DNA of 64,000 nucleotides from an uncultured Victivallales bacterium (GCA_934661375.1 CAKUJH010000004.1:45968-109967), one strand, 5' to 3'. Shown: positions 40,321 to 62,232, counted from the first letter of the stretch. Notes: a model not told the origin generated them from the sequence alone. Numbers and translations are program-made.

Positions 40321-43300
40321 TTATCTGCCGCTTTTGAGCTGTTCCTGGATTCTGGAAAATTCAGGAGTGCTGTTTCTGCGCGGCCATTCCTTCGCAGACG
40401 GCAGTATTTTGTTGAAGCGCAAACCGATACAGTAAACGCTCTCCTGTCCGGAAGAATCCCGCAGGTACAGCGGCACATAAAGCAGTTTTGCCGCAGAATC
40501 ATAAACTGCGCCCGGCGTCAGCCAGAGCCGGATCGCCGCCCAGTCATGTTCCACGGAAACCGTCAGTTCCGGAGTTCCTTTGACGGAATAATTCATGAAG
40601 GAGAAGGCAATGCGTCTTACGGCGGCATCGCCGTCCAGCAGGAAACGTTCCTTGCCGGCTCCTTCCGTCCGGGTGTTCACGGGAGCCGCGCCTTCCGCCG
40701 CGACGGTCAGATAACGGTATCTGAGCCATGCCGGAGTTTTTCCCGGCGCGATGGCGGCACACATCCGTTTCTGAATATCCGCGGGGAGTACAACGATGCT
40801 CCAGCGCAAGGGTTTCAGGGTATTGGTCAAGGCGTCGGCAATGGTTCCGGCGCGTTCACACCAGACCCGATCCGCCGCAGTGAAACGGGGATCCGGAGGA
40901 AGCTGATGAATGCGCTGTCCGGCGTTTTTGGCGGAGGCGGGTTCCGTTTTCTGCGGCGGCAGAAATTCCAGGAACCGTTTCAGATCGCCGGCTGACAATG
41001 CTGTCCCGGAAGCGTCTGCGCAAAGCGGAAAACGCTGAATCATGCCGATGCAGTCGGCATATTGTTTTGCCCGCGCCGTGACGGCATTCTGACGGAGCAG
41101 CGCGCAGGCGTCCTCGACATAATGAGTCCACCAGCCGATGTTGCCGGCTTCATTTTTCCCTTGCACGATGGAATAATTCAGCGCGAATTGTTCTTCCGGC
41201 AGAACGGAAATGACGTTCCAGGCTTCAAGCGGATTTTTGGGAAGCGCATTCCAGTTGGCAACTACCCGGAGACAGGTTTCCGTGTAATGCGGAGTCAGGA
41301 CCGCCATGACACCGGCAAATTCGCCGATGGTCTGGTCGCGGAGTTTCCGGTTGGCGGGAGAAAGCAGTTCCGCCGGAATTTCCGCAAGATGCCGCCGCAG
41401 GGTTTCATAAACCGTACCGAGAATGGCGTTGGTGCGGTACGCTTTGAGCGTGGCATTTCTGTCCTGGAAATCCTGATAGCTGGCGGGATGGAAGCCCAGC
41501 GTATCCGGATAATTCCGCCAGTAGGCAATATATTCCGTAAGATAGGAATCGAAGGCATTGCGGATATCCTTGATTCGTGTCGGAACCTGAATGGTTCCGG
41601 TGTTTCCTTTGGGCGAAGCTGCGGTTTTCGCCAGCAGAGCCGCGGCGTTCTGCATCAGCGGCAAAGCGGCTTCGGGGTCGAAATCCTGACGGTATTCCAG
41701 TTTTCCGACAGACTGTCCTGCCAGTTCCGGCGGAATCCGGAAAACATTTTCCTGCTGTCTGGTGCCGGCGATCCGGTTGCGCAGGGTTTCTCCGGAGGCG
41801 GGCAGACGTCCAGCCTCTTCATTCAGCAGTTTCCAGCGGGAATACTGCATGGCGGCATTCATGGCACTGCGTTCCGAAACAATCAGGGAGTCGTCTTTGC
41901 CCAGGGCGTCTCCGCAGATTGCCGCAAACCAGTCAAAGGCGGACTGCTGTTCTTTCAGCTTCTGCTCATTGGCTTCCCAGTTCTGCTGAAAACCGTTTTT
42001 GCCGGATTTTTCCTGATGCAGCGGCGCGGCAGCCAGTTCGCGCAGACGGATGGACAACTGAGCCAGAGTCATCGGACCGATGGAATCGGCAGCGGTTTTT
42101 TTGATGCCGACCGGACGCATACAAAGCTGATAGAACTGCGGCATCCGTTCTTTCTGAACTGCGGTGTCTGCGTTAATGGCATTCAGCACCGTTTTGCGCC
42201 AGAGTTCGATTTTTTCCTGCTGCATGGAGGTGTTTCCCCGTGCCGGATTCCGGGCGGATGCGGCTGCGGACAGCGCTTTGTAATCCTGTTCGAGCAGATC
42301 GCGGAACGAGGCGACCGCCTGGTTCAGGATCGTGATTCCGTGATCCTTGTAATCCAAAATTCCGGATTTGACCGCAGAACTGTTCTGGCCATTCATCGGG
42401 AAAAGCTGTTTGCCGGTCCGGATGAATTCCTCGGTCAGCGCGCTTCGCTGTTTCAGGTTTGCCTGAAGCTGTTCCGGTGCGATATTGGCAGGCGAGACGA
42501 TCTGCTGGCGGAGCTGTTTGTCCAATTCCGAAAAACGAAGGACATTCTGCAGATGTTCGCGCAGCTGTCCGTATTTGCTTTCCGGATAAATGTTCAGATT
42601 CTGCCATGCCTGCATCAGACGTTCTGCGCCGTAGCGGCAGGAACGGCTGAAATCCTTGGAAAACAGGAAGATGTTGTCCGTCATGGAGCTGGTCGTGCGG
42701 TCTTCCGCGTAAGAGGCAAAGTACGCCAGCGAGGCTTCGCTGATGTCCGGGTCCAGATAACGCATGAAATCCGCAATGCTTCTGTTGTCCCGGTCTTTGC
42801 GGTCGTGCGAGAAGAGATACCAGGGTTTCTTTTTCAGGGTTCTGCTCCGGATGAATTCCCGGATGACCGCGCCTTCCGCGGCGGAAACCGTTTTGTCTGC
42901 CGGGGTTTTCAGCAGTTCCTGTTCGGCGATTTGAATCATGGGTTCCATCAGCATGTTGGAAAGGATTCCGTTGTGGATGATTTCCCGTTCGGCGTACCCC
43001 ATATCGGTGAATGAGCCGAAAAGCAGGAATGAGGAAAGCCGGAAGGCGAACGGCGGTTTGACCGGAGTGGTCAGCATATCGTATTCCGATGCAAACAGGT
43101 TCATCCGGAGGATTGAGCTTTCCCCGGAAAGCGGCAGGGTCGCCGTCAGTTCCCAGGAATTTTCACCGTCGGGTACGATCAGCGGCGACTTTTTCAGTGT
43201 GCCGTCGCGGAGTTTTTCGGCAATGAACTTGTAATATCCGGTCTGCGTTTTCAGGTTGCGGCTGATCTGCGGACTGACATATAAGCCGCTGAGCAGGAAG

Positions 43301-44643
43301 GTCAGCCCCATGCCGAGCAGAATCAGACTGACCAGATAGTACGGAATATTGCGGCGGAAGCGTTCCGCGGCGGTGAATTCCGCCAGGTCTCGCCGGCAGA
43401 AGATGAAATTATGCAGCAGACTGCGGATGAACGCGCCCTGCCGTTCCGGACGCGGCTGTTTGATGACCGGCGCATCGTCCACGTTTTTTCCGAGGGCGGA
43501 GGCATATTCGGCATCCAGACAGACCCCGGCGTCTTCCGCGGAGGTGAAGAACACGCCGGACAGGATTGCTTTTTCCGAAGCATGGAGGTTTTCTGTGCCG
43601 AACAGACTTTTGAGATAAAGGGACAGCACCGGTTTCAGGGAATTGAAACTTTCCGGGAAGGTGAAAATATCCCCCGCGGCTGCACCGCGTTCCGCGCCGG
43701 ATGCATCATGCACCTGACGCGACAGCATACCGGAAAGCCGTCCTTCGCAAAGACGGTTTATGACTTTTTCCCAGAAGCTGTCAAAATCCGCGGCGGAAAA
43801 CGTTCCGGCATGTTCGCAGTTCCAGCCGAACACATCATTCCGGAAAGCATCTTTGGCATTGTCGAAATATTCACGGAATCCGACCAGCATGTCGCATTTG
43901 GTCACGACCACCCAGCAGGGCAGGAGCATCCCGACGGAACGGATCAGCCGGTTCAGTTCCGAGGCGATCAGCAGAGCTTTTTTCCGGACCTGCGATTCTT
44001 CATCCGCCAGCAGGGCGTCTGCGGGAATCGTCAGAATGATTCCGTCCAGCGGATGTTTCGCATGTTTTTTCCGGATCAGCTTGACAATCTTTGCCCATTC
44101 TGCGCCGGAGCCGTTCATCCATCTGTCGAAGAAAACCCGTCCGGCGACATCCAGCACCACCGCCTGCGGTGTTGTCCAGAAACGGAGAGGTACCGATTCC
44201 CCTTCCTGCTGATTTTTGTCTTCTTCAACGGAGACGCGGGTATCCATCTGACATTTCCGCAGCAGGGAGGATTTGCCGCAGGATGGTTCGCCGAGCAGCA
44301 TAAACCAGGGCAGGTCATAAGGCTTCCGTTCCAGTTCGGACAGCATTTTCATGCCGCGCCGGAAAAGACCGGGGATCATTGCCGTCCGGACCGTTACCGT
44401 CTCGCGGACAGAGTCTGCACTGTCTCCGCCGCGGGCGAGGCGGTTCAGATTTTTCCATGCCATGAGATCGTCTTTGAGTTTGGCGGTTTCCTTGTTCTTT
44501 GCATGATTTGCGCGGAATTTCCGGTACAGCGGAAGGCACACTCCGAAGACCAGAAGCAGCAGAATGACAAATCCTGCAAGAAGGAGCAGCCAATGCTCTC
44601 CGCACCAGTTGATGAATGTATTGCCGGTTGCTGTCTGATTCAT
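40321..44643 (-). CDS. tssM: T6SS membrane-complex protein TssM (IcmF)
   Basis: 1440 aa. An N-terminal hydrophobic segment, Walker A LLGEPSCGKSSLL, a second TM segment (NIPYYLVSLILLGMGLTFLLSGLYV), and a long periplasmic region. It is the last gene of the T6SS operon. The ATG overlaps the tssL stop as ATGA. Confidence 0.85.
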   Translation of the reverse strand: MNQTATGNTFINWCGEHWLLLLAGFVILLLLVFGVCLPLYRKFRANHAKNKETAKLKDDLMAWKNLNRLARGGDSADSVRETVTVRTAMIPGLFRRGMKMLSELERKPYDLPWFMLLGEPSCGKSSLLRKCQMDTRVSVEEDKNQQEGESVPLRFWTTPQAVVLDVAGRVFFDRWMNGSGAEWAKIVKLIRKKHAKHPLDGIILTIPADALLADEESQVRKKALLIASELNRLIRSVGMLLPCWVVVTKCDMLVGFREYFDNAKDAFRNDVFGWNCEHAGTFSAADFDSFWEKVINRLCEGRLSGMLSRQVHDASGAERGAAAGDIFTFPESFNSLKPVLSLYLKSLFGTENLHASEKAILSGVFFTSAEDAGVCLDAEYASALGKNVDDAPVIKQPRPERQGAFIRSLLHNFIFCRRDLAEFTAAERFRRNIPYYLVSLILLGMGLTFLLSGLYVSPQISRNLKTQTGYYKFIAEKLRDGTLKKSPLIVPDGENSWELTATLPLSGESSILRMNLFASEYDMLTTPVKPPFAFRLSSFLLFGSFTDMGYAEREIIHNGILSNMLMEPMIQIAEQELLKTPADKTVSAAEGAVIREFIRSRTLKKKPWYLFSHDRKDRDNRSIADFMRYLDPDISEASLAYFASYAEDRTTSSMTDNIFLFSKDFSRSCRYGAERLMQAWQNLNIYPESKYGQLREHLQNVLRFSELDKQLRQQIVSPANIAPEQLQANLKQRSALTEEFIRTGKQLFPMNGQNSSAVKSGILDYKDHGITILNQAVASFRDLLEQDYKALSAAASARNPARGNTSMQQEKIELWRKTVLNAINADTAVQKERMPQFYQLCMRPVGIKKTAADSIGPMTLAQLSIRLRELAAAPLHQEKSGKNGFQQNWEANEQKLKEQQSAFDWFAAICGDALGKDDSLIVSERSAMNAAMQYSRWKLLNEEAGRLPASGETLRNRIAGTRQQENVFRIPPELAGQSVGKLEYRQDFDPEAALPLMQNAAALLAKTAASPKGNTGTIQVPTRIKDIRNAFDSYLTEYIAYWRNYPDTLGFHPASYQDFQDRNATLKAYRTNAILGTVYETLRRHLAEIPAELLSPANRKLRDQTIGEFAGVMAVLTPHYTETCLRVVANWNALPKNPLEAWNVISVLPEEQFALNYSIVQGKNEAGNIGWWTHYVEDACALLRQNAVTARAKQYADCIGMIQRFPLCADASGTALSAGDLKRFLEFLPPQKTEPASAKNAGQRIHQLPPDPRFTAADRVWCERAGTIADALTNTLKPLRWSIVVLPADIQKRMCAAIAPGKTPAWLRYRYLTVAAEGAAPVNTRTEGAGKERFLLDGDAAVRRIAFSFMNYSVKGTPELTVSVEHDWAAIRLWLTPGAVYDSAAKLLYVPLYLRDSSGQESVYCIGLRFNKILPSAKEWPRRNSTPEFSRIQEQLKSGR

Positions 44644-45377
44644 TTTCTTTCTCCTGCGGCGGACTGGTCAAGGCTGTCCGCTGTTTTTTCCGAATCCGTG
44701 GAAATGGATGTTGCATAGACTGCGCTGTTCAATGTGCTGCGGTATTCCAGCGTTGCTTTCCGCAGAGCCGCATAATTGTAGATCAGACAGCCCAGCGCGA
44801 ATACGAAGCAGCAAAGAAGAATCCAGAGCGCGGCGCCTGCGGAATGTTTCCGGGGACGTCCGGGTTTCGTGTTTTCTGCCGGATACGGAGTAACCGGCTC
44901 CGAAACCGGGTTGAAATTATGGGCGAACCGCGCGGCGCAGAGCCGCATCCGGTGTTCGATGTATCCGGGATCGCCGCGGTGAACACCGTCGAATCCCAGT
45001 CCCATCATGAAGAAAAATTCTTCCAGACGGTTGTCCGATTCCGGGTCGTCGATGGTCTCCGCCAGCAGTTCAAAGAATTTTTCGTCGCCGGAAAGTTCCT
45101 TGTATCTGCGGGCGAGCAGCGGCCATTCTGCGGAAAACGGCAGATTGCCTTCCTTCACCATATAGTCAATGAAGAAAAGCAGCGGTTTCTCGATCCGGGC
45201 ATATTCCCGCGCCAGAATGTCATCGGCGGCGAGGGTCAGACGGATGGCATCGAACCGGAGTTCCAGTTCATGCTGGAACGATTCCATGGACGGTGCCGCA
45301 CCTGCGGCTGCCCGCCGGCGTGTTTCGCATACAAGCAGAAGAACCGGACGGCATAATTTTTCAAGTCGGCTGCCCAT
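44640..45377 (-). CDS. tssL: T6SS membrane-complex protein TssL (DotU family), with no peptidoglycan-binding extension
   Basis: I chose the ATG at 45377 (aaggagg RBS). DotU-like blocks PLLFFIDYMV, EWPLLARRY, FFELL and FFFMMGLGFDG, plus a C-terminal TM segment ALWILLCCFVFALGCLIY. Confidence 0.8.
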   Translation of the reverse strand: MGSRLEKLCRPVLLLVCETRRRAAAGAAPSMESFQHELELRFDAIRLTLAADDILAREYARIEKPLLFFIDYMVKEGNLPFSAEWPLLARRYKELSGDEKFFELLAETIDDPESDNRLEEFFFMMGLGFDGVHRGDPGYIEHRMRLCAARFAHNFNPVSEPVTPYPAENTKPGRPRKHSAGAALWILLCCFVFALGCLIYNYAALRKATLEYRSTLNSAVYATSISTDSEKTADSLDQSAAGERK

Positions 45378-46734
45378 TTGCGCCTCCTTTGGTGTTGATG
45401 GTGATGTAAAGCGAGGCTTCCAGCTGCGGGAACGATTCGGCGGCATAGTCGATGGCTGCGGCGTTTTCCGCAATAATGTCGTTCCAGATCCGGGCGGATT
45501 CATGCCGTTTCAGCAGAAACCACAGTGTATTCGGCAGGGACGGCAGACAGCGCGGCGGATAATGCAGTTCCTGGAGTCTGACGCCGCGGACCCGTCCGGC
45601 GAGAGCGGAGGGATTCACCAGCTTGAATTCATCGCCCAGTTCCAGTGCATTCACAATTTTTCGGGAGTCGGCGGAACAGCTGACCGCCAGATAATATTCG
45701 CCGGCGGAGGCAAGGCGTTCCGCATCCAGCCGGGCAACCGGAACTCCGTCCTTGTCAGCAAAGTCGATTTTGACAAAGCCCAGTCCGCCGCCGGCAAGAA
45801 TCAGGGCGCGGATTCCGTGGAACAATGCCTGAAAAGCCGGCGCGGCGTCCGGATGCCGGTACGACGGAACCGGTTCGAAAATCCGTTCCGGGTGCAGGGC
45901 GCAGAGCTCGCCGAACAGTACGGACAGTTCCCGGTACAATCCAAACGGATCTGTGGAGCAGGGTTCCAGTGCCGCCTCAAACCGAGCCAGCGCCATGTTG
46001 ACACAACGGAGCTGAAGCATATTGTAGAGATTGGTTCCGGACAGGGTTTCGGGCGAACAGCCGGATTCGGACAGATCGCTGACCAGACGGTCGCGCCGCT
46101 GCCGGAGTTCCCAGACCAGATCCGTCAGCTGCGCATACAGCGGACAGTCCGGGGTAAGACGCAGGAACGGCGGCAGATAGTCCGGGTCGGCAGCCAGTGC
46201 TGTTCCGGATGCTCCCTGTGCCACTCGAACCAGCCGCAGAACCGGCAGCAGTACCATGTCTTTGGCATCTCCCGCCACCAGCCGCACGTTGGGGACGCGG
46301 CGGACCAGTGAAATCTCATTTTCGCCGGAATTTTCATCCCGTACGAGTTTTTCCCGAACCAGAAATGCCCGTTTGTCGTTTTCCGATTCACCGAGGTTCC
46401 CTTCGTGTTCGGAATAACGCGGAATGGCAAGGTGAATCAGAATTCCGCCTTCACCGATTTCCTGTTTTGACACATCCAGTGGCTGGAGCACCGAATTGCC
46501 CGGCATACTGACGCAGGTCCCGTCCGGCATGACGGCGGAAAGCCGCAGAAACTGAATTCTGCCGCCCCGGAGCGCATCGGTGTTCAGTTCGTAATCCAGC
46601 AGTCCGTACGGGAAAGCATGGAAAATTTCGCGGTCCTTGTGGAGCGCATCCGCTCCGTATTTCTGAAGCTGCTGAAAATGGTGCGGCTGAATAAACAGAC
46701 CGTCCGACCAGAATATTTGTTCATCAAATCTCAT
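45361..46734 (-). CDS. tssK: T6SS baseplate protein TssK
   Basis: The N-terminus IFWSDGLFIQPHHFQQLQKY is the canonical TssK signature. 457 aa. Confidence 0.9.
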   Translation of the reverse strand: MRFDEQIFWSDGLFIQPHHFQQLQKYGADALHKDREIFHAFPYGLLDYELNTDALRGGRIQFLRLSAVMPDGTCVSMPGNSVLQPLDVSKQEIGEGGILIHLAIPRYSEHEGNLGESENDKRAFLVREKLVRDENSGENEISLVRRVPNVRLVAGDAKDMVLLPVLRLVRVAQGASGTALAADPDYLPPFLRLTPDCPLYAQLTDLVWELRQRRDRLVSDLSESGCSPETLSGTNLYNMLQLRCVNMALARFEAALEPCSTDPFGLYRELSVLFGELCALHPERIFEPVPSYRHPDAAPAFQALFHGIRALILAGGGLGFVKIDFADKDGVPVARLDAERLASAGEYYLAVSCSADSRKIVNALELGDEFKLVNPSALAGRVRGVRLQELHYPPRCLPSLPNTLWFLLKRHESARIWNDIIAENAAAIDYAAESFPQLEASLYITINTKGGANGQPT

Positions 46735-48500: not shown

Positions 48501-49037
48501 TTACACCTGCGTTTTCAGCGCATTGATTTTGGTTTGCAGTGTTGCCACTTGGGTGGACATGGCGGTTGCCGCTGTTTCCAGGGCATTGGCATGGTCGGTA
48601 ACCGCAGTTACATCCGTGGTAAGTGACTGAATATCAGTCCGTATTGCGGCGAATTTGGAGTCCAGAGCCGCGGCGGCTCTGGTGGCGGAAACACTGACGG
48701 AACTTTCCAGTCCGGTCAGACTCAGCCAGAACCCGGTGAAAGTGATGGAGGCAAGCGTAAAGCTGGCGCCGAATGCTTTCACGTCAATTCCGACACCTAC
48801 GGCTGTGGCGGACCCGCCGGTCGCGGAGGCATCGGCAATTTTTGCTCCGGCTCCGCCGAACGATACTTCCGCTGTCCATTTCGATTTGCCGGAATCATCC
48901 GCTTCCGTGCTGTTTTTATCCATTTCGACATTTCCATCGGAAGGACTGCCTTTCCCGGAAGCTCCGGACTGCAGAAAATTTACGCATCCGGAAAACGGAC
49001 TGCTCAGACTGTCCAGAATATTTTCATTTGCACTCAT
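48501..49037 (-). CDS. T6SS-embedded small protein of unknown function (X, 178 aa)
   Basis: ATG at 49037. Its RBS TAAGGAGG incorporates the vgrG TAA stop. It has a G/S/A/D-rich N-terminal half, a hydrophobic segment FGASFTLASITFTGFWLSLTGL, and a ~60-aa T/A-rich coiled-coil-like C-terminus (AAIRTDIQSLTTDVTAVTDHANALETAATAMSTQVATLQTKINALKTQV). Confidence 0.7.
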   Translation of the reverse strand: MSANENILDSLSSPFSGCVNFLQSGASGKGSPSDGNVEMDKNSTEADDSGKSKWTAEVSFGGAGAKIADASATGGSATAVGVGIDVKAFGASFTLASITFTGFWLSLTGLESSVSVSATRAAAALDSKFAAIRTDIQSLTTDVTAVTDHANALETAATAMSTQVATLQTKINALKTQV

Positions 49038-52194: not shown

Positions 52195-52195
52195 G

Positions 52196-54841: not shown

Positions 54842-54843
54842 AG

Positions 54844-55932: not shown

Positions 55933-57710
55933 TCAGTGATTCTCCCCTGCTGTTTGGTGAACAGTTCCAGACGCACCGGCGTATTCAGCGGAGCGTAACT
56001 TTCCAGCAGTTTACGCAGAACGCAGGCAAAGATGTAAAAACCGGTTCCGACACAGCAGGTCTCATCCAGAGTCAGCCGGAGTTTCCAGCCGTTTTCAAAA
56101 AAGATGCAGCCTTTCCGGATGAAGCGGAACACTTCCGGCGCACTTTGCAGTTCCGTGATGCCGTCCAGCAGTTTTTCCGTTTCCTCGGTGTTTCGGGGCG
56201 AATAATTCCGGATCAGTTCCTTCAGAATTTTCAGCGGCATGATGTCTGACTGCCACAGCATGGTGGAGAAATGAAGGGTCAGACAGCCGGTCTTTTCCCA
56301 GGCTTCCCTGCTGCCGTCGGCGATCAGCGGCGGTGCCGGATTCCCCGGCGGAACCGCGAATCTGGCTTTCCGGACCGTTTTCGGCAGAACCGCAGTCAGA
56401 ACGGCGTCCCCGCGCAGCAGAAGCGGCAGATCCCGGTTGGAGCAGAGCAGATCCGCCTGAAACTGCATCGGCTGATTCTGGTACTGACGGATCATTTCGC
56501 CTGAAAATGAAAGAAAAACTTCGCTTCCGTGATAGGAACTGCGGCTGTGCCGGTTGTCGCCGAGCAGCCGTTCCCGACGGTGTGCCGCAAAATATTCCCG
56601 GTCGGAACAGTCCGTGAAATCTTCGCAGTTTTCGTACAGATTGCGGACATTCTGAACATTGCGGTTGTTCGCGTCAAACAATTCAACCCGGTTCACCTGC
56701 ATGATTTCGTAATCCAGCGGTGCGGTCCGGTCCGGAACCACCTGAAACTCATGACGGAGTGAAAAAGAGGTTCGTTCCGAGCGTTTGGCAAACAGATTGA
56801 CTGCCGGGACGCAGTTCAGCCGGAAAGTATCATTTTTCAGCAGATGCACCAGTTCCGTATTCCTGCGTCTGAATGTGAATACCAGTTGCAGTTTGCCGTT
56901 TTCCGCCCGCTGCAGCAGTCTGGAAAAATTTTTCAGCAGCACGAATTTCTGTCCGGCGGGGAACGCCATGAAGCGGTAAAGCTGTTCCACTCCTTCCAAT
57001 TGACTGTGCTGTTTCTGCGGGGAAAGAGTCGTGTCATCCAGATCCGGAATGCCAAAAGAGACATCGGCGCATTTCTGCCAGGAAGCTCCTTGCCGGACAT
57101 GGCATCCGGTCAGGTCAATCTGCAGAAGACGCTGAATTTCAGATGCTTCGGCGTCGTTCACATTCAGATGAAGAAGAAGCCCGTCCGGCGTGTCCGGAGA
57201 AATATTCTGCGGATGAACGTCAAATTCCAGGTAAAGACCGGATTCCCCGGTCAGACCATAGGACCCCAGTTCCAGTGTAAGATATTTCGCGGAACCAAGG
57301 GTAATATTGAAGAGCGGCACATCCCACAGCGTGGAAAATGTGCATGGCGTCTGAATGCCCGGTATGTTCGCCTGAAACAGCGATCCGGCGGGCAGCAGAC
57401 AGCCCTGTCCAAAGTCCGGTTCCTGCAATTCCAGTACGCAATGTGAGGGCAGGGGGGCAAGAAGACGGGGCGCAGCCGAAGCCAGCACGGATTCCAGCAG
57501 ACGCGGATTGCCGTCGTCAAATTTCTTCTCCACCCGTGCCGCCAGAAAAGCGGCTCCTTCCAGCAGACGCTCGACATAAGGATCAGGGCATTCGTTCGCG
57601 GAAAGTTCAAGACGCGAGGCAATCTTCGGAAAGTCCTGCGCAAATTCGCTGCCCAGTTCCCGCAGATGTTCCAGATTCGTCTGGTAATACTCTAAAAACG
57701 TCTTCTTCAT
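55920..57710 (-). CDS. tssF: T6SS baseplate protein TssF
   Basis: MKKTFLEYYQTNLEHLRELGSEFAQDFPKIASRL is the canonical TssF N-terminus. I chose the ATG at 57710; the track start at 57728 is a TTG. Confidence 0.9.
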   Translation of the reverse strand: MKKTFLEYYQTNLEHLRELGSEFAQDFPKIASRLELSANECPDPYVERLLEGAAFLAARVEKKFDDGNPRLLESVLASAAPRLLAPLPSHCVLELQEPDFGQGCLLPAGSLFQANIPGIQTPCTFSTLWDVPLFNITLGSAKYLTLELGSYGLTGESGLYLEFDVHPQNISPDTPDGLLLHLNVNDAEASEIQRLLQIDLTGCHVRQGASWQKCADVSFGIPDLDDTTLSPQKQHSQLEGVEQLYRFMAFPAGQKFVLLKNFSRLLQRAENGKLQLVFTFRRRNTELVHLLKNDTFRLNCVPAVNLFAKRSERTSFSLRHEFQVVPDRTAPLDYEIMQVNRVELFDANNRNVQNVRNLYENCEDFTDCSDREYFAAHRRERLLGDNRHSRSSYHGSEVFLSFSGEMIRQYQNQPMQFQADLLCSNRDLPLLLRGDAVLTAVLPKTVRKARFAVPPGNPAPPLIADGSREAWEKTGCLTLHFSTMLWQSDIMPLKILKELIRNYSPRNTEETEKLLDGITELQSAPEVFRFIRKGCIFFENGWKLRLTLDETCCVGTGFYIFACVLRKLLESYAPLNTPVRLELFTKQQGRITEWTM

Positions 57711-57729: not shown

Positions 57730-58230
57730 TCATTTCGGTTCGATCGTTGCGCTGCCGGTTTCCAGATTCAGACGGCTGATGAACAGAAATTCTTCCTGCA
57801 GAGGTGTAACGCGGAGTTTGCCGGAAATCTGCAATGCGACTTCCTGCGCAGAACTCTGCTGCTCCGCAAACGAAACGTCCAGTGAATCCGGCTGAATGCG
57901 CGGTTCGAAACAGCGGATCTGAAACAGAATATCTGTCCGGATCCGTTCCAGTGCCGTTTCGTCGTGCGAAAATCCGCAGAAATCCGCCAGACCGAAAGCC
58001 AGCACAGAACTTGCCGCATCGGGATACGGCTGCATTTCCTGTTCCGGCAGGTGCGATCTGGAATTCAGAATCATTTCCAGATTCCGCAGCACATCCTGTT
58101 TCAGCTGTTCCAGAGACAGCACCTGCGGCAGCTTTTCCTTTTTCAGCTGCGGTTCGCTGTCGGTCAGCCGGCTCAGCAGACACGGCGGAAAACGATCCGC
58201 GGACCGCATGGTTGATTTTGCTGAACTCAT
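57730..58230 (-). CDS. tssE: T6SS baseplate protein TssE (gp25-like)
   Basis: 166 aa. The blocks LLSRLTD...LKQDVLRNLEMILNSRS are typical of the GPW/gp25 family. An alternative start lies at 58209. Confidence 0.8.
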   Translation of the reverse strand: MSSAKSTMRSADRFPPCLLSRLTDSEPQLKKEKLPQVLSLEQLKQDVLRNLEMILNSRSHLPEQEMQPYPDAASSVLAFGLADFCGFSHDETALERIRTDILFQIRCFEPRIQPDSLDVSFAEQQSSAQEVALQISGKLRVTPLQEEFLFISRLNLETGSATIEPK

Positions 58231-58305: not shown

Positions 58306-58806
58306 TCAGGAATTGGTAACCTGGTCAAAGCTGGCTTCGACCGCACCATCCAGAGTGTTGTCCGGTTTGACCGGCGTAACTTTCCAGGTGATCTTCTTGG
58401 CGAAGAGTTCCACGTCTTCCACAGCCTGCTGCGCGGCGGAACTGCCGTTGCTGTCCAGCACATCCACCGTATGGACATGCGCTTTGGCAATCTTCACGTT
58501 TTCCAGTTTGACTTCGTACACGACAACCTGTTTTCCGCTGATGGCGCGGCAGGACTGGAATTCCACTTTCGGAATGTCCTTGCCGTTCATGCAGAACTGC
58601 TGGAGTTTCGGAGTTGCCTTGTCGCAGAGATGAGTGAACGCAAACGCTTCAAATTTGCCGCGTCCGCTCACATCCGTTCCGCGTCCCAGATCGACTGACT
58701 GGACGGCACCGTGTGCAAAGCTCTGCACTTCAATCCATTTGGAATGTTTCTTGTCGAGAGATTCACCATCGATTCCGTCAATTTTCAGGAAGAAATCACT
58801 TGCCAT
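58306..58806 (-). CDS. hcp: T6SS inner tube protein Hcp (TssD)
   Basis: MASDFFLKIDGIDGESLDKKHSKWIEVQSF is the canonical Hcp1-family N-terminus. gaggtg RBS. Confidence 0.9.
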   Translation of the reverse strand: MASDFFLKIDGIDGESLDKKHSKWIEVQSFAHGAVQSVDLGRGTDVSGRGKFEAFAFTHLCDKATPKLQQFCMNGKDIPKVEFQSCRAISGKQVVVYEVKLENVKIAKAHVHTVDVLDSNGSSAAQQAVEDVELFAKKITWKVTPVKPDNTLDGAVEASFDQVTNS

Positions 58807-58840: not shown

Positions 58841-58866
58841 CGGCTTCCCCGTCCCCGGGAAAGCCG
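58841..58866 (-). promoter_or_regulatory. 11-bp GC-rich stem-loop in the tssC-hcp intercistronic region
   Basis: Arms 58841-51 and 58856-66 pair, with a 4-nt loop. One position is a G-U wobble in the minus-strand RNA but a C-A mismatch on the plus strand, which favours function in the T6SS transcript. No U-tract follows it on the minus strand. Confidence 0.45.
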
Positions 58867-58882
58867 TTTGCCTCATTCCGGG

Positions 58883-60382
58883 TTATTTCGCACCGCTCGG
58901 AACTTTGGTGGTCAGACGCAGCGACGTGGTCAGACCTTCGAGCTGGTAATGGGGACGCAGGTAGAACCGGGCATTGTAATAGCCGGGCTGTCCTTCCACT
59001 GCTTCCACTTCGACTTTCGCTTCCGCCAGCGGATATTTCGCCTTGACTTCTTCCGAAGCGTTGGGGTCGCTGGTAACATAATTGGCGATCCAGTCGTTCA
59101 GCCACTGCTGCATGTCGGCGCATTCCTTGAACGAACCGATTTTGTCGCGGACAATGCACTTCAGATAATGGGCGAAGCGGCAGGTTGCGAAAATGTAGGG
59201 CAGACGCGCCGAAAGGCTGGCGTTTGCGGTCGCATCCGGGTTGTCGTATTCCTGCGGCTTGTTGACCGTCTGCCCGCCGAGGAACACCGCGTAATCCGTG
59301 TTCTTCCAATAGCAGAGCGGCAGGAAACCGTTCTTGGAGAGTTCGGCTTCGCGGCGGTCCGTGATGGCGATTTCCGTCGGGCATTTCATGGCGACGCCGC
59401 CGTCATCGGTCGGGAAGGTGTGGGTCGGCAGGTTTTCAACTGCACCGCCGGATTCCACACCCCGGATTCTGGCGCACCAGCCGTATTCCGTGAAGGAACG
59501 GTCGATGTTTGCACCCATGGCATATGCGGCATTCATCCAGTTGTATTTGCCGTTGACACCGGCTCCGGTTTCCTCTTCGAAATTGAATTCCTCCACCGGG
59601 TTGGTGGTCGGACCGTAGGGCATCCGGCTCAGGACGCGCGGCAGAGTCAGCGCAACATAACGGCTGTCGTCTGATTCACGGAAACTGCGCCATGCCGCAT
59701 ATTCCGGCGTACTGAAAATCTTGGACAGATCACGCGGATTTGCCAGTTCCAGCCACGAATCCAGATTCATGATGGAAGGAGCAGCTGCGGAAATGAACGG
59801 CGCATGGGCTGCGGCGGCAATCTGGGCGATTCCGCGGAGCATTTCAATGTCCGGCGCAGTCTGGTCAAAATAATAATCGCCGATCAGACAGCCGAACGGT
59901 TCGCCGCCGGCAGTGCCGTATTCCGCTTCGTAGATTTTCTTGAACAGCGGACTCTGATCCCATGCCGTCCCTTTGTATTTTTTCAGGGTTTTGACAATAT
60001 CCTTTTTGGAGATGTTCATGACGCGGATTTTCATGGATTCGCTGGTCTGGGTGTTGTTGACCAGATACGCGAGTCCGCGCCATGCGCTTTCCAGCTGCTG
60101 GAATTCTTCGTTGTGGATAATCAGATTCACCTGTGCGGAAATCTTCTTATCCAGTTCCGCGACAATTCCTTCGATGGTCTTGACGGAATCGCCGGAAACC
60201 AGGCTGGCATTTTCCAGAGCCTGACCGACCAGGGTTTTGACTGCACTCTGAACCGCAGTATTGGCTTCTTCCGATTTCGGTTTGAATTCCTGGCTCAGCA
60301 GTTTTTCGAAATCGGACATTTCAACGGTCGCTGCGTTCAGGACCTCATTCTGTTTCAATGTTTCGGGCATGTTTTTCCTCAT
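58883..60382 (-). CDS. tssC: T6SS contractile sheath large subunit TssC
   Basis: 499 aa with typical VipB/TssC blocks (FEKLLSQEFKPKSEEA, NPRDLSKIF, ALTLPR.L.R.PYG, LRPHYQLEGL). The ATG overlaps the tssB stop as ATGA. Confidence 0.9.
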   Translation of the reverse strand: MRKNMPETLKQNEVLNAATVEMSDFEKLLSQEFKPKSEEANTAVQSAVKTLVGQALENASLVSGDSVKTIEGIVAELDKKISAQVNLIIHNEEFQQLESAWRGLAYLVNNTQTSESMKIRVMNISKKDIVKTLKKYKGTAWDQSPLFKKIYEAEYGTAGGEPFGCLIGDYYFDQTAPDIEMLRGIAQIAAAAHAPFISAAAPSIMNLDSWLELANPRDLSKIFSTPEYAAWRSFRESDDSRYVALTLPRVLSRMPYGPTTNPVEEFNFEEETGAGVNGKYNWMNAAYAMGANIDRSFTEYGWCARIRGVESGGAVENLPTHTFPTDDGGVAMKCPTEIAITDRREAELSKNGFLPLCYWKNTDYAVFLGGQTVNKPQEYDNPDATANASLSARLPYIFATCRFAHYLKCIVRDKIGSFKECADMQQWLNDWIANYVTSDPNASEEVKAKYPLAEAKVEVEAVEGQPGYYNARFYLRPHYQLEGLTTSLRLTTKVPSGAK

Positions 60383-60909
60383 TTCTCTTCCGCTTTGCCG
60401 GCTTCTTCTTTTTCTTTCGCCTTCTGGGAGAGGGCTTTCATGAGCGCGGGGTCTTCCAGAATCTTGTTGATCAGTTCCTCGGCTCCGGATTTGCCGTCCA
60501 TGTACGAAAGAAGGTTGGCAAGCTGTTTCCGGGCTTCCAGCAGCTGTTTGATTCCGTCAACTTTGGAAGCGACTGCCGCCGGCGAAAAATCCTCCATGCT
60601 TTCGAAGGTCATATCCACCGGCAGTTCGCCTTCGCCGCTCATGGCGTTGGGAACCCGGAAAGCGACACGCGGCTTCATGCTTTTGAGCCGTTCATCGAAA
60701 TTGTCGCAGTCAATATCCAGAAAATTCCGGTCTTCCACTTTCGGAAGCGGTTCCGCCGGTTTGCCGGAAAGATCCGCCATGACACCTGTCACAAAAGGAA
60801 GGTTGACTTTCTTTTCCGCTCCGTAAAGCTCAACGTCATATTCAACCTGCACGCGCGGCGCGCGGTTTTTGCCGATGAACTTCTGTCCACTGTTTGAAGA
60901 TTTTGCCAT
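60379..60909 (-). CDS. tssB: T6SS contractile sheath small subunit TssB
   Basis: RAPRVQVEYDVELYGAEKKVNLPFVTGVMADLSG is the canonical VipA/TssB N-terminus. aaggag RBS. Confidence 0.9.
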   Translation of the reverse strand: MAKSSNSGQKFIGKNRAPRVQVEYDVELYGAEKKVNLPFVTGVMADLSGKPAEPLPKVEDRNFLDIDCDNFDERLKSMKPRVAFRVPNAMSGEGELPVDMTFESMEDFSPAAVASKVDGIKQLLEARKQLANLLSYMDGKSGAEELINKILEDPALMKALSQKAKEKEEAGKAEEK

Positions 60910-60938
60910 ATTTCAGCTCCTTTTGGTTGTTTTATTTT

Positions 60939-62018
60939 TCAGGCTTCGTCATTCTGTTCATTCCGGATTCCGAAAATCTCCCGGCCTTTTTCCTGGGCGC
61001 CGGATTCAATTTCCCCCAGCAGATCCAGAAAATTCATATCTGCCATCCGCATCGCCCGGCGTACCAGAAACGGTACGGGACTGGTCGGTTCCGCCTGCTG
61101 GAAATATTCCGCCGCTTTCTGAAGCAGCAGCAGTGCCTCCGCTCGGCTGGATGGTGCAAACTGGGATATATTCACCGCGGCTGACGGCATGGCGGTCTGC
61201 GGACGTGCCGCGGAAGTTTCCGCGGTTCCGGTTTCCGTATCAGCTGCTTCCTGCGGCGCGGCATTTTCAGTCAGACAGCAGGAACTGTAAAAATTCCGGA
61301 GTATTTTCAAATCCGCAAACAGCGCGGCAAAATTCAGCGAGCCTTCTCCGGCATGACTGTCCACCGCCTGAACAATATCCTGCAGTGCGGCATACACCGC
61401 GTCCGCCTGTTCTTTCCGGCTCTGCATCTGTTCACTGGAAACGGCACGCATTTCCGCATGGAACAGCGCGGCGTCGATTTTTCTGCCGTCGACGGCATCC
61501 AGATCACCGGTTACAACCATCAGGTCGCGCAGTGTGTACCGGTTGCTGTCCGTCAGACGCTGGGAACGGAAATGGTTGATGAACATAATCGGATCATTGA
61601 ATGTTCCCGGCGGCGGAGAGAGAATCGACAGAATGTTCAGACGTTCCGTCGGGTCGTTGTCGTCATCCGGGTCGAGCTGCGGATAGAATTCATCCCACAG
61701 ATCCCGCACGAGATACCGCATCAGTTCCAGCCCATCATGGAAACCCTGCAGACCGCGCAATGCGAAACCGGCGAGGGAAAGGTACACCGCGACCCGCAGA
61801 TCACGGGTATTTTTCCAGAGTTCGAGACAGTTTGCCTGAAGTTTTTTCCAGTCCGGATCACGACCTTCAATAATGGAATCGCCCATCTGACTGGGCTGCA
61901 CACCAGTTGCCAGGTTTTCCAGTTCCATGAACAACGGAGAATATTCCTCATTGGTGCCGCATCCGGAATTCGAATCTGACGAAACCGGCAAGCACATTTT
62001 TCTGATGTCAAATTCCAT
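60939..62018 (-). CDS. tssA: T6SS protein TssA (ImpA N-terminal domain family)
   Basis: I chose the ATG at 62018; the track start at 62075 is a TTG. The ImpA_N-like block reads DPDWKKLQANCLELWKNTRDLRVAVYLSLAGFALRGLQGFHDGLELMRYLVRDLWDEFYPQLD. The C-terminal block is SPVPFLVRRAMRMADMNFLDLLGEI. Confidence 0.8.
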   Translation of the reverse strand: MEFDIRKMCLPVSSDSNSGCGTNEEYSPLFMELENLATGVQPSQMGDSIIEGRDPDWKKLQANCLELWKNTRDLRVAVYLSLAGFALRGLQGFHDGLELMRYLVRDLWDEFYPQLDPDDDNDPTERLNILSILSPPPGTFNDPIMFINHFRSQRLTDSNRYTLRDLMVVTGDLDAVDGRKIDAALFHAEMRAVSSEQMQSRKEQADAVYAALQDIVQAVDSHAGEGSLNFAALFADLKILRNFYSSCCLTENAAPQEAADTETGTAETSAARPQTAMPSAAVNISQFAPSSRAEALLLLQKAAEYFQQAEPTSPVPFLVRRAMRMADMNFLDLLGEIESGAQEKGREIFGIRNEQNDEA

Positions 62019-62232
62019 TTCTGTTCCCCACGTCCTGTTTTTCAGCCGGAAAACCGCCAGATTGCGGTATTCCAATCATACCATAACCTGTTTTATATAT
62101 TTTTCAATTCAGTTTTTTACTTTTTTTTCGTTTTTTTTGCAGGAATATCGGGGTACGGAATTTGCCTTGTTCCGCGCATTTACTTTGAAAAACGATCATC
62201 ATAAAAAATAAGCATCTCGTGCAATAAGCGAC

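What the first reader, a model, noticed from the sequence alone, without database searches (positions are those of the whole stretch)
40321..62075. A complete, compact single-operon T6SS sits in a PVC-like genome with no recognisable effector/immunity or regulatory genes
All 13 core components (tssA-M, including hcp, vgrG and clpV) plus PAAR are present in one co-directional, overlap-rich block of about 21.7 kb. The presence of TssJ, TssL and TssM makes it T6SS-i-like. Several things are absent from the cluster. There are no Fha/PpkA/PppA or TagF-type post-translational regulators and no enhancer-binding protein. There is no peptidoglycan-anchoring domain on TssL and no TagL. There is no recognisable toxin/immunity pair and no DUF4123, DUF1795 or DUF2169 adaptor. 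To my knowledge T6SS biology has been worked out almost entirely in Proteobacteria and Bacteroidota. A minimal system in a glycan-degrading PVC bacterium, embedded among CAZyme-like operons with no mobile-element flanks, is a good candidate for new cargo and new regulation.
Basis: partly seen in the sequence, partly recalled or inferred. Interest (0 to 1): 0.75.

Follow-up and report, generated by a model that had tools for sequence, protein, structure and literature searches.

The report
Complete T6SS operon in gut Lentisphaeria
This is an intact, single-operon type VI secretion system (a contractile protein-injection machine) in an uncultured gut Lentisphaeria bacterium; it belongs to an unstudied, divergent branch shared by gut anaerobes of several phyla, and its cargo is still unknown.

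Summary
Window 40321-62018 (minus strand) carries 16 co-directional genes, with gaps of -17 to +96 nt: tssA-B-C-hcp-E-F-G-clpV-PAAR-vgrG-X-Y-tssJ-K-L-M. Twelve core genes and PAAR match curated models. The 13th, TssJ, is invisible to sequence profiles. It was confirmed by structure: AF2 pLDDT 93, and all ten top PDB fold matches are TssJ lipoproteins.

The host is an uncultured Lentisphaeria (PVC). The flanks are glycan-utilisation genes, and no mobile-element genes were found in the parts of the window examined. The cluster holds no Fha, PpkA, PppA, TagF, enhancer-binding protein, peptidoglycan anchor, known adaptor or toxin domain.

The system is not PVC-specific and not truly minimal. It belongs to a lineage also found in gut Alphaproteobacteria, Treponema, Sutterella, Mucispirillum and Succinivibrionaceae, and in environmental Opitutaceae and Phycisphaerae. 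Its features:
- The sheath is closest to P. aeruginosa H1 (TssC 69% identical).
- TssM is 1,440 aa, and its ~980-aa periplasmic part matches no canonical TssM.
- VgrG is highly divergent.
- Y, a long DUF6931 protein, is a conserved accessory; a small fibre-like protein usually sits in X's slot.

It is not a recent proteobacterial import: the nearest TssK outside the species is 46% identical. I found no publication on this branch. Moderately interesting; no effector was identified.

The parts
62019..62322 (-). AT-rich intergenic region upstream of tssA, shared with the divergent HlyD/ABC-transporter operon. Contains a sigma-70-like site (TTGAAA-16-TATGGT, 62107-62080). Probable operon promoter.
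   Evidence: Sequence read; consensus scan. No sigma-54 -24/-12 motif lies in this region (17 matches in the window against ~37 expected by chance). The promoter is inferred, not shown.
60939..62018 (-). tssA (359 aa)
   Evidence: ImpA_N 91.5 bits. TIGR03363 201.6 bits, above the 160.85 cut-off. The start at ATG 62018 comes and from public gene calls of 359 aa.
60379..60909 (-). tssB, small sheath subunit (176 aa)
   Evidence: T6SS_VipA 193 bits. 69-80% identical to lineage relatives.
58883..60370 (-). tssC, large sheath subunit (495 aa)
   Evidence: VipB 446.6 bits and VipB_2 159.5 bits. 68.9% identical over 456 aa to PDB 5n8n_B, the P. aeruginosa H1 sheath. 78-88% identical to relatives of the main gut clade in other phyla; 57-63% in Ruminobacter/Succinimonas.
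58306..58806 (-). hcp (tssD), tube protein (166 aa)
   Evidence: T6SS_HCP 113.7 bits. PDB Hcp matches include PA0085.
57730..58209 (-). tssE, gp25-like baseplate subunit (159 aa)
   Evidence: GPW_gp25 56.2 bits. Public gene call of 159 aa.
55920..57710 (-). tssF (596 aa)
   Evidence: T6SS_TssF 404 bits, full length.
54844..55932 (-). tssG (362 aa)
   Evidence: T6SS_TssG 233 bits.
52196..54841 (-). clpV (tssH), sheath-recycling AAA+ ATPase (881 aa)
   Evidence: TIGR03345 VI_ClpV1 1230.9 bits, above the 884.95 cut-off. The ClpB model scores below its own cut-off.
51904..52194 (-). PAAR spike tip (96 aa), with no C-terminal extension
   Evidence: PAAR_motif 33.2 bits, cut-off 27. 46-62% identical across the lineage.
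49048..51894 (-). vgrG (tssI), 948 aa. Residues 1-404 are the gp27-like hub. Residues ~413-780 are a divergent gp5-like OB/beta-helix half. Residues ~780-948 are a lineage-specific tail of unknown function.
   Evidence: Phage_GPD 77.7 bits at residues 25-240. Residues 413-780 align with the separate second ORF of split-VgrG loci. Sub-threshold, collinear Phage_base_V and DUF2345 hits. The last 170 aa have no hit. The tail aligns only with Lentisphaeria locus L010.
48501..49037 (-). X, a 178-aa Gly/Ala/Thr-rich protein with a C-terminal coiled coil. Occupies the slot that in most relatives holds a conserved ~130-aa small protein.
   Evidence: No curated family; only weak coiled-coil hits. Weak match to an HMM of the conserved slot family (E 2.7e-4 in a 16-sequence search, high compositional bias). 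Architecture by eye resembles the 1-3 small ORFs after vgrG in the nearest relatives, but BLASTP found no significant match.
47244..48485 (-). Y, a 413-aa all-helical DUF6931 protein with a ~170-aa helical insertion. Conserved lineage accessory gene directly upstream of tssJ.
   Evidence: PF22011 87.2 bits, cut-off 27. Near-full-length homologs at 32-53% identity, named in Treponema, Spirochaetaceae and Deferribacterales, and weaker matches (26-38%) in Alphaproteobacteria, Sutterella, Mucispirillum and Succinivibrionaceae loci. AF2 pLDDT 81.8. No PDB fold match, best E = 2. Short DUF6931 genes sit between vgrG and PAAR in a Vibrio plasmid T6SS.
46752..47225 (-). tssJ, outer-membrane lipoprotein (157 aa), recognisable only by fold
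   Evidence: Signal plus lipobox MKIKILVPGVLALLLCGC. No Pfam, NCBIfam or PDB sequence hit, even with a family profile. hhalign against verified TssJ gives probability 54% over 27 columns. AF2 pLDDT 93.3, pTM 0.86. The Foldseek top 10 are all TssJ (3zhn, 4y7o, 4a1r, 3rx9, 6ixh), probability 1.00, TM up to 0.76.
45361..46734 (-). tssK (457 aa)
   Evidence: T6SS_VasE 204 bits. TIGR03353 228.5 bits, cut-off 100. PDB TssK 5m30 at E 2.4e-25.
44640..45377 (-). tssL (245 aa): DotU domain plus one C-terminal membrane segment, no peptidoglycan-binding domain
   Evidence: DotU 70.9 bits and no other domain. Public gene calls of 245 or 215 aa. One hydrophobic segment at ~177-206.
40321..44643 (-). tssM (1,440 aa): canonical cytoplasmic NTPase domain with a Walker A motif, membrane segments at ~13-44 and 432-458, then a ~980-aa periplasmic region with no detectable similarity to canonical TssM
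   Evidence: IcmF-related_N 143 bits. TIGR03348 matches only residues 26-452 (197 bits, below the 388 cut-off). No PDB sequence hit. The control canonical TssM hits all four domain families; lineage members hit only the N-terminal one. hhalign of lineage against canonical aligns only the first ~480 columns (E 6e-50); the rest reaches probability <=0.8%. All 405 plasmid TssMs match only within the N-terminal third; listed hits span residues 71-437.

Best explanation
The block is one operon encoding a functional contractile type VI secretion system of the T6SS-i class in an uncultured gut Lentisphaeria bacterium.

Mechanism, which follows from established T6SS knowledge rather than from tests here:
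- TssJ (outer-membrane lipoprotein), TssL and TssM form the trans-envelope complex.
- The TssE-F-G-K baseplate docks onto it, carrying the VgrG trimer capped by PAAR.
- TssA primes polymerisation of the Hcp tube inside the TssB/TssC sheath.
- Sheath contraction expels Hcp, VgrG and PAAR with any attached cargo into a neighbouring cell.
- ClpV disassembles the contracted sheath.

What is specific here, shown by tool results:
- The machine belongs to a divergent lineage spread across several phyla of mostly host-associated anaerobes.
- Its sheath and ClpV are highly conserved and closest to the P. aeruginosa H1 (i3) type.
- TssJ, the periplasmic part of TssM, and VgrG have diverged beyond sequence recognition.
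- Two lineage features sit between vgrG and tssJ: the conserved long DUF6931 protein (Y) and a slot for a small fibre-like protein (X here).

Inferred:
- With no Fha/PpkA/PppA/TagF pathway and no EBP or sigma-54 signal, firing is probably controlled mainly at transcription, from the AT-rich tssA upstream region.
- Y and X are more likely spike-associated assembly or loading factors than a toxin/immunity pair.
- The real effectors are either the ~170-aa VgrG tail or genes outside this window.
For: - Core gene assignments.
- TssJ by fold.
- Operon compactness and ribosome-binding sites.
- No convincing internal minus-strand terminator.
- Intact and under purifying selection: in six other contigs of the species all compared genes have identical length, and synonymous codon differences outnumber non-synonymous ones about 3:1. 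The locus sits at the same chromosomal site in every contig shown that carries the same flanking gene.
- Lineage and synteny.
- Sheath affinity to H1.
- Not a recent import.
- Y conserved across phyla, next to tssJ or in the vgrG-PAAR region.
- The conserved small protein family in the X slot.
- A related Mucispirillum T6SS is reported among the most-expressed genes in gnotobiotic mice (PMC5285517). Whether that strain's system is this lineage was not tested.
Against: - No secretion, expression or killing data exist for this organism or for any verified member of the lineage.
- The TssM periplasmic region could not be linked to canonical TssM by any sequence method.
- No effector was found, so the system's target (bacteria, protists or host) is unknown.
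- The promoter is only a consensus match.
- X is only weakly tied to the conserved slot family.
Confidence: 0.85

Rival explanations
1. The cluster is a recently acquired proteobacterial T6SS island, for example from gut Succinivibrionaceae or Alphaproteobacteria, and so says little about PVC biology.
For: TssC, TssB and ClpV are 65-83% identical to those of Succinivibrio, Treponema and Alphaproteobacteria MAGs. The lineage is clearly spread across phyla, so horizontal transfer happened at some point. Cluster GC (0.53-0.57) is slightly above the window mean.
Against: Outside the slow-evolving sheath and ClpV, the nearest non-conspecific relatives are only 25-46% identical (TssK 46%, TssM at most 41%, Y at most 38% in reference genomes). 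In both the TssK and TssC trees the window groups with other Lentisphaeria/Victivallaceae, and environmental PVC members are basal. No tRNA was found, and no integrase or transposase domain among the flanking ORFs scanned. The locus is at the same site in every public contig shown for the species. GC is within the range of the flanks.
Confidence: 0.05
2. X and Y are the system's effector/immunity pair, or effector plus chaperone, so the 'missing' cargo is inside the cluster.
For: They lie immediately downstream of vgrG, the classic cargo position. A preprint annotates a DUF6931 gene downstream of vgrG in Pseudovibrio as 'DUF6931/SsdA-like immunity'. The X slot varies in sequence and copy number between close relatives, 1 to 3 small ORFs, as cargo slots do.
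Against: Y is conserved at near-full length across at least three phyla, in fixed synteny with tssJ-K-L-M in many loci. It has no signal peptide or membrane segment and no known fold. Polymorphic immunity genes do not behave this way. Most loci carry a well-conserved ~130-aa protein in the X slot. No toxin domain is detectable in X, in its relatives or in Y. Coiled-coil and collagen-like trimer motifs point to a structural fibre.
Confidence: 0.15
3. The cluster is an evolutionary relic that no longer assembles. Its unrecognisable TssM periplasmic domain and missing regulators would reflect decay.
For: TssM, VgrG and TssL score below NCBIfam equivalog cut-offs. No effector or regulator was found.
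Against: All 16 ORFs are intact and tightly packed, most with GGAGG-like ribosome-binding sites. ORF lengths are identical across strains, and synonymous changes outnumber non-synonymous about 3:1. The same divergent TssM and TssJ are conserved in about 50 of the fetched loci from several phyla. The TssJ fold is predicted with very high confidence.
Confidence: 0.04

Closest known systems
Pseudomonas aeruginosa H1-T6SS (T6SS-i3)
   Same: Closest solved sheath: TssC is 68.9% identical to 5n8n_B, and the two are sister clades in the TssC NJ tree. The best structural match of TssJ is P. aeruginosa TssJ1, 3zhn. From my own knowledge of the H1 locus, not tested here, it has the same sub-orders tssA-B-C-hcp-(tagJ)-E-F-G-clpV-vgrG and tssJ-K-L-M.
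   Different: The window has no Fha, PpkA, PppA, TagF, TagQRST or TagJ. Everything is one co-directional operon rather than two divergent ones. TssM is 1,440 aa with a periplasmic region unrelated in sequence. VgrG matches P. aeruginosa VgrG1 only over ~70 residues. TssJ is 15% identical. There are extra X and Y genes.
Enteroaggregative E. coli Sci-1 T6SS (structural reference for the TssJLM complex and baseplate)
   Same: TssK matches 5m30/6giy at E 2.4e-25. The TssJ model superposes on SciN/TssJ from 3rx9, 4y7o and 6ixh with TM up to 0.76.
   Different: phmmer against PDB sequences gave no TssM hit at all; the PDB holds membrane-complex entries such as 6ixh. TssJ is 10-11% identical.
Unstudied T6SS clusters of gut Succinivibrionaceae, termite-gut Treponema (including T. 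primitia ZAS-10), Sutterella, Mucispirillum, gut Alphaproteobacteria, Victivallaceae, Opitutaceae and Phycisphaerae
   Same: True relatives. They share the divergent TssJ family, a TssM with the same non-canonical periplasmic region (~1,420-1,590 aa in the gut clade), usually Y/DUF6931 and a small protein after vgrG, and the same J-K-L-M order.
   Different: Gene content around the spike varies. VgrG is fused or split. hcp, vgrG and PAAR lie outside the operon in Succinivibrio. Some Treponema loci have a partner-switching regulator set beside Y. TssM is shorter (~1,160-1,230 aa) in environmental PVC members. None has been studied experimentally as far as the searchable literature shows.
Bacteroidales T6SS-iii (the characterised gut T6SS)
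   Same: Same habitat and probably the same ecological role, contact-dependent antagonism in the gut.
   Different: From my own knowledge, T6SS-iii lacks TssJ, TssL and TssM and uses TssN-R instead. The window has TssJ, TssL and TssM and a ClpV of the T6SS-i type.
Short DUF6931 genes in canonical T6SS loci (Vibrio crassostreae plasmid p2; Pseudovibrio T6SS-1)
   Same: Y contains the same Pfam domain. The short genes also lie in the spike gene region, between vgrG and PAAR.
   Different: Those proteins are ~195 aa. Y is 413 aa with a ~170-aa helical insertion, and it sits upstream of tssJ. The function of either form is unknown.

Membership tests
T6SS-i (canonical 13-component type VI secretion system) | Contractile sheath TssB/TssC | tested here: met
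   T6SS_VipA 193 bits; VipB 446.6 bits plus VipB_2 159.5 bits. 756 bits to the solved sheath 5n8n.
T6SS-i (canonical 13-component type VI secretion system) | Hcp tube, VgrG spike and PAAR tip | tested here: met
   Hcp 113.7 bits. VgrG: Phage_GPD 77.7 bits, above the Pfam cut-off but below the NCBIfam VgrG cut-offs. PAAR 33.2 bits, cut-off 27.
T6SS-i (canonical 13-component type VI secretion system) | Baseplate TssE, TssF, TssG, TssK, and TssA | tested here: met
   All above curated cut-offs.
T6SS-i (canonical 13-component type VI secretion system) | ClpV (TssH) ATPase | tested here: met
   TIGR03345 1230.9 bits, cut-off 884.95.
T6SS-i (canonical 13-component type VI secretion system) | TssL with a DotU domain | tested here: met
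   Pfam DotU 70.9 bits, cut-off 27. Below the TIGR03349 cut-off.
T6SS-i (canonical 13-component type VI secretion system) | TssM: cytoplasmic IcmF-related N-terminal NTPase domain | tested here: met
   PF14331 143 bits. hhalign against canonical TssM: probability 100%, E 6e-50 over ~480 columns.
T6SS-i (canonical 13-component type VI secretion system) | TssM: periplasmic IcmF-related, IcmF_helical and IcmF_C domains (TssJ-binding part) | tested here: inconclusive
   Not detectable by Pfam, NCBIfam, PDB phmmer, tblastn or hhalign, while a control canonical TssM hits all three. TssJ shows that sequence-invisible homology occurs in this system.
T6SS-i (canonical 13-component type VI secretion system) | TssJ outer-membrane lipoprotein (transthyretin-like fold) | tested here: met
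   Sequence models fail. The lipobox is present, and the AF2 model (pLDDT 93.3) has solved TssJ structures as its ten best PDB hits, probability 1.00.
T6SS-i3 / H1-type | Sheath groups with i3 reference systems | tested here: met
   5n8n is the best PDB hit by a wide margin (756 against 522 and 392 bits). It is the sister clade in the NJ tree. This is an NJ tree with few references and no support values.
T6SS-i3 / H1-type | Threonine-phosphorylation control genes (Fha, PpkA, PppA, TagF; TagQRST) | tested here: not met
   All 16 genes are accounted for and none carries FHA, kinase, PP2C or TagF domains. Canonical loci fetched do carry an FHA gene upstream of tssJ.
T6SS-iii (Bacteroidota type) | TssN-R in place of TssJ, TssL and TssM | tested here: not met
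   TssJ, TssL and TssM are present. There is no room for further genes.
Extracellular contractile injection systems / T6SS-iv | No membrane complex and no ClpV; tail-fibre and tape-measure genes | tested here: not met
   TssJ, TssL, TssM, TssA and ClpV are all present.
DUF6931 (PF22011) | Match above the Pfam gathering score | tested here: met
   Y scores 87.2 bits, cut-off 27, in two stretches separated by an insertion. All 120 listed homologs carry PF22011.
T6SS effector/immunity pair | Recognisable toxin domain, a cognate small immunity gene, and polymorphism between strains or species | tested here: not met
   No toxin or immunity family in X, Y, PAAR or the VgrG tail. Y is conserved across phyla. 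The X slot is variable, so cargo in that slot cannot be excluded.

The most novel reading that the evidence does not exclude
The window represents an undescribed T6SS-i sub-lineage that spread among host-associated anaerobes of at least five phyla. It kept an H1-like sheath and ClpV but rebuilt its envelope-spanning and spike parts. The rebuilt parts are a ~980-aa TssM periplasmic region with no sequence relative among canonical TssMs, a TssJ recognisable only by fold, a VgrG that can be split into two genes, and two dedicated accessory proteins: a long DUF6931 with no known fold, and a trimer-motif small protein. These would take the place of the Fha/TagF-type assembly control. On this reading, Y and X are new structural or loading components of the spike or membrane complex, adapted to non-proteobacterial envelopes.
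Probability: 0.4. Interest if true: 0.65.

Novelty: new member of a known kind. Interest (0 to 1): 0.45.

Why it matters
The T6SSs studied in the gut are those of Bacteroidales and a few Proteobacteria. This operon is a clean, compact example of a different and widely distributed branch. One Succinivibrio sheath variant alone is indexed in 706 blocks of the assembly collection.

If the branch is active, several abundant but poorly studied gut and rumen groups (Lentisphaeria, Succinivibrionaceae, Treponema, Sutterella, Mucispirillum) carry a contact-dependent weapon with unknown cargo.

The branch also gives natural variants of TssM, TssJ and VgrG for asking which parts of the membrane complex and spike are really indispensable. 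It points to DUF6931 as a T6SS-associated family that deserves a function. The practical limit is that the host is uncultured.

Tried and rejected
- Word-indexed homolog search for TssJ found only its own 90% cluster. It was replaced by the exhaustive HMMER search.
- A profile of positional TssJ homologs against PDB sequences and Pfam gave nothing.
- hhalign against verified TssJ was marginal: probability 54% over 27 columns.
It was redone with search-derived sequences.
- Fold search of Y against the PDB found no relative, best E = 2.
- A sigma-54 promoter search found nothing above chance.
- tblastn of TssM (window and Mucispirillum versions) and of Y against 72,556 plasmids, to test a link to the Campylobacter/Helicobacter-type T6SS suggested by Loy et al.. 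All TssM hits stop at the N-terminal third and Y has one weak Vibrio hit. The Campylobacter link remains untested.
- Eight literature searches found no description of a Lentisphaeria T6SS or of this lineage. Two of them (69, 92) were too loosely phrased to be informative. Boyer et al. 2009 does not mention these phyla in its main text.
- I considered that the 948-aa VgrG is an 'evolved' VgrG with an effector domain. I rejected this for residues 413-780, which are conserved in the lineage and show collinear sub-threshold OB and DUF2345 hits. It stays open for the last 170 aa.
- I considered the AraC gene at 39430-40245 as the T6SS regulator. I rejected it as unlikely. It is divergent from, and probably paired with, the GH2 gene, and convergent with tssM.
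- The long plus-strand ORFs inside the cluster were dismissed as antisense artefacts. Only three such ORFs, in the flanks, were scanned, and they had no family hits.

Full report
**1. What is in the sequence**

The minus strand of window 40321-62018 carries 16 tightly packed, co-directional genes.

Pfam and NCBIfam identify twelve core genes plus PAAR:
- TssA, TssB, TssC, Hcp, TssE, TssF, TssG and ClpV.
- PAAR and VgrG.
- TssK, TssL and TssM.

TssA, ClpV and TssK exceed NCBIfam equivalog cut-offs. VgrG, TssL and TssM pass Pfam cut-offs but fall below the NCBIfam ones.

Three genes had no T6SS assignment from these models:
- X, 178 aa.
- Y, 413 aa, which hits DUF6931 (PF22011) at 87 bits.
- A 157-aa lipoprotein upstream of tssK.

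Public gene calls on contigs of the same species, and inspection of the sequence, shorten several over-extended ORFs: TssA to 359 aa starting at 62018, TssC to 495 aa, TssE to 159 aa, TssF to 596 aa, ClpV to 881 aa, TssL to 245 aa. With these starts, intergenic distances run from -17 to +96 nt, and most genes have a GGAGG-like ribosome-binding site.

The only sizeable non-coding stretch is the ~300-bp AT-rich region upstream of tssA. It contains a sigma-70-like site and no sigma-54 motif. No convincing minus-strand terminator lies inside the block.

**2. The thirteenth core gene**

The lipoprotein has a lipobox (MKIKILVPGVLALLLCGC) but no hit to the TssJ family or to PDB sequences. This held even with a 34-member profile of positional homologs. 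hhalign against Pfam-verified TssJ proteins from canonical loci was marginal: probability 54% over 27 columns.

An exhaustive HMMER search found 119 clusters of relatives. With 60 of them as an alignment, AlphaFold2 gave a model with pLDDT 93.3 and pTM 0.86.

Its ten best PDB matches are all TssJ lipoproteins: P. aeruginosa TssJ1 (3zhn), Serratia Lip (4a1r), and EAEC SciN/TssJ (3rx9, 4y7o, 6ixh). Probability is 1.00, TM reaches 0.76, and sequence identity is 10-15%. Transthyretins and pilins follow far behind. So the claim of 13 core genes plus PAAR is correct, although no sequence-based annotation would show it.

**3. Host and context**

Members of the same 90% protein clusters are deposited as Lentisphaeria MAG proteins. 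A DUF1559 protein, N-methyl prepilin-like proteins, GH2 and GH42-like enzymes and LacI/GntR/AraC regulators fill the rest of the window.

There are no tRNA genes and no Rfam hits. None of the flanking ORFs scanned carries an integrase or transposase domain.

Every public contig shown that carries an identical copy of a flanking gene has the T6SS at the same site. The two flanks are the AraC/GH2 pair and the HlyD/ABC-transporter operon.

Across six such contigs, the tssM-tssJ genes compared keep identical lengths, and synonymous codon differences outnumber non-synonymous ones about 3:1. This argues for a functional, selected locus.

**4. Relatives**

TssC homologs at 84-88% identity come from other MAGs, where named Lentisphaeria. 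At 80-83% they come from Succinivibrio, Succinatimonas, Treponema and Alphaproteobacteria MAGs.

A scan of GTDB species representatives with a three-phylum TssK alignment returned 80 loci. A tblastn table and ORF extraction define a lineage with two shared marks: the same divergent TssJ family directly upstream of tssK, and a long TssM (~1,420-1,590 aa against ~1,190 aa in the canonical proteobacterial loci).

The lineage includes:
- Lentisphaeria and Victivallaceae.
- Gut, rumen and horse Alphaproteobacteria.
- Many termite-gut Treponema and Spirochaetaceae, including the isolate T. primitia ZAS-10.
- Sutterella, Mucispirillum and Deferribacterales.
- Succinivibrio, Succinatimonas, Succinimonas and Ruminobacter.
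- More distantly, Phycisphaerae, Opitutaceae, Chthoniobacteraceae and Hydrogenedentota.

Identity of the window's proteins to reference-genome relatives outside the species:

| Protein | % identity |
|---|---|
| TssB | 69-80 |
| TssC | 79-83 (57-63 in Ruminobacter/Succinimonas) |
| ClpV | 61-76 |
| Hcp | 57-69 |
| PAAR | 46-62 |
| TssA | 41-58 |
| TssE/F/G | 30-45 |
| TssK | 32-46 |
| TssL | 27-46 |
| TssM | 25-41 |
| Y | 26-38 |
| TssJ | 25-38 |
| VgrG | 22-30 (isolated short segments higher) |

In NJ trees the window groups with the other Lentisphaeria/Victivallaceae sequences (TssK; TssC). Environmental PVC members are basal in the TssK tree. It also shows that the system is not a PVC speciality.

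**5. Subtype**

The closest solved sheath is P. aeruginosa H1 (5n8n). It scores 756 bits, against 522 and 392 for the next two, and is 68.9% identical over 456 residues. In the TssC tree the gut lineage is sister to H1 plus a Desulfospira system that has a canonical TssM.

So the sheath is i3-affiliated. The hallmark i3 control genes are absent, however. Canonical loci from the same scan do carry an FHA gene (FHA plus T6SS_FHA_C) just upstream of a Pfam-recognisable tssJ.

**6. TssM**

Only residues ~26-452 match TssM models. This part includes a Walker A motif, GEPSCGKS, visible in the alignment. Hydropathy shows membrane segments at ~13-44 and 432-458, which leaves ~980 residues outside the cytoplasm.

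A control canonical TssM (Roseibium, L067) hits IcmF-related_N, IcmF-related, IcmF_helical and IcmF_C. The window's TssM and those of Sutterella, Mucispirillum, Phycisphaerales and Opitutaceae hit only the first.

Profile-profile comparison of 28 lineage TssMs with 16 canonical ones aligns only the first ~480 columns (E 6e-50). Everything after that reaches a probability of at most 0.8%. The ~1,160-1,230-aa environmental-PVC TssMs align with the lineage along their full length (E 1e-88).

There was no PDB sequence hit. None of the 405 plasmid TssMs matches beyond the N-terminal third.

Given what happened with TssJ, I read this as extreme divergence plus ~300 aa of insertion in the gut clade, not as proven non-homology. 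I could not test the fold.

**7. VgrG, X and Y**

VgrG:
- Residues 1-404 equal the ~400-aa hub gene of loci where VgrG is split.
- Residues 413-780 align with the separate second ORF of those loci. They give collinear sub-threshold hits to the OB (Phage_base_V) and DUF2345 models.
- Only the last ~170 aa are specific. They align only with another Lentisphaeria locus and have no family hit.

Y:
- It has near-full-length homologs (32-53% identity, all DUF6931) across several phyla.
- It usually sits directly upstream of tssJ.
- Its model is all-helical (pLDDT 81.8) and has no PDB relative.
- Short DUF6931 genes lie between vgrG and PAAR in a Vibrio crassostreae plasmid T6SS. According to a preprint that labels the gene 'SsdA-like immunity' without a test, the same holds in Pseudovibrio.

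X:
- In most lineage loci the gene before Y is a well-conserved ~130-aa protein with an N-terminal hydrophobic helix and a conserved C-terminus.
- X matches that family only weakly (E 2.7e-4, compositionally biased).
- The nearest relatives have three small ORFs in this slot. Those of L098 are paralogous to one another. They have Gly-rich or collagen-like middles, repeated TG-x-S-x-S-x-TG motifs and coiled-coil ends, as X has.
- These trimer-type motifs, right after a trimeric spike gene, suggest a spike-associated fibre or loading factor. That is inference.

**8. Mechanism and rivals**

The best-supported reading is a functional T6SS-i that works like the canonical machine. It lacks post-translational checkpoint genes and is probably controlled at transcription. 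Its cargo is unidentified: either the VgrG tail, the X-slot protein, or genes beyond the window.

Rivals:
- Recent proteobacterial import: contradicted by the identities and the trees.
- X/Y as an effector/immunity pair: possible for X, unlikely for Y.
- Decayed relic: contradicted by intactness and selection.

**9. Novelty**

Annotation pipelines already label these genes as T6SS in MAGs, and T6SS-i is a well-known kind. I found no paper on a Lentisphaeria T6SS or on this lineage in the searchable library.

The nearest published item is the Mucispirillum schaedleri genome paper. It reports a T6SS, calls it Helicobacter/Campylobacter-like, and finds it expressed in gnotobiotic mice. I could not test whether that system is the same lineage.

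I therefore file the finding as a new member of a known kind. A substantial chance remains that the lineage merits recognition as a distinct variant.

Noticed in passing
window 2024-8151 (+), 20795-25949 (-), 31584-37567 (-): Three similarly built glycan-utilisation modules. Each has a LacI/GntR-type regulator, an N-methyl/DUF1559 prepilin-like protein, and a ~950-1,150-aa protein with Laminin_G_3 and/or GH42-like (or DUF6259) domains.
   Followed up: partly
window ~10000-18000: A low-GC stretch (0.45-0.47, against 0.50-0.57 elsewhere). It holds a WbsX-type glycosyltransferase (11588-12730, -) and three large ORFs without any Pfam family (10200-11591, 12727-14481, 14481-15701). Possibly an acquired surface-polysaccharide locus.
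   Followed up: no
protein P0353: A 1,784-aa protein with 13 tandem matches to the core of the TssJ-like domain. The fold of this divergent TssJ family is therefore also used as a repeat module in a giant protein.
   Followed up: no
L006 10001-15076 (Treponema MAG): The DUF6931 gene is followed by an acetyltransferase and a partner-switching set: a dCache/HAMP/SpoIIE phosphatase, a STAS protein and an HATPase_c_2 kinase. This is a candidate T6SS regulator module in Treponema that the window lacks.
   Followed up: no
L006, L008, L012, L018, L030, L051 (Treponema and Alphaproteobacteria loci): VgrG is split into a ~400-aa gp27-like hub gene and a separate second gene (424-597 aa where identified). 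The second gene corresponds to residues ~413-780 of the window's fused VgrG.
   Followed up: partly
L098 4072-5748; L099 2958-5079 and 6317-6598, 13854-16320: The nearest relatives of Y have three small ORFs after vgrG. In L098 they are paralogous and carry collagen-like GXY repeats. In L099 PAAR lies after Y, and a 1,697-aa Calx-beta/PPC protein follows tssM.
   Followed up: partly
L003/L004 (Succinivibrio metagenome contigs): The Succinivibrio version of the operon lies directly after thrS-infC-rpmI-rplT and lacks hcp, vgrG, PAAR and Y in the operon. One contig has an integrase, AlpA and DUF5906 element upstream of thrS; another has an AbiEii/DUF6088 pair there.
   Followed up: no
window 41062-43014 (+), 49861-51438 (+), 52037-53749 (+): Long antisense ORFs (525-650 aa) run opposite tssM, vgrG and clpV. 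They lie opposite well-supported genes and were not scanned; I treat them as compositional artefacts.
   Followed up: partly
window 39430-40245 (+) and 37680-39218 (-): An AraC-family regulator is divergent from a GH2 gene (512 aa in most public calls, 571 aa in one) and convergent with the end of tssM, 75 nt away. It is probably the GH2 regulator rather than a T6SS one.
   Followed up: partly
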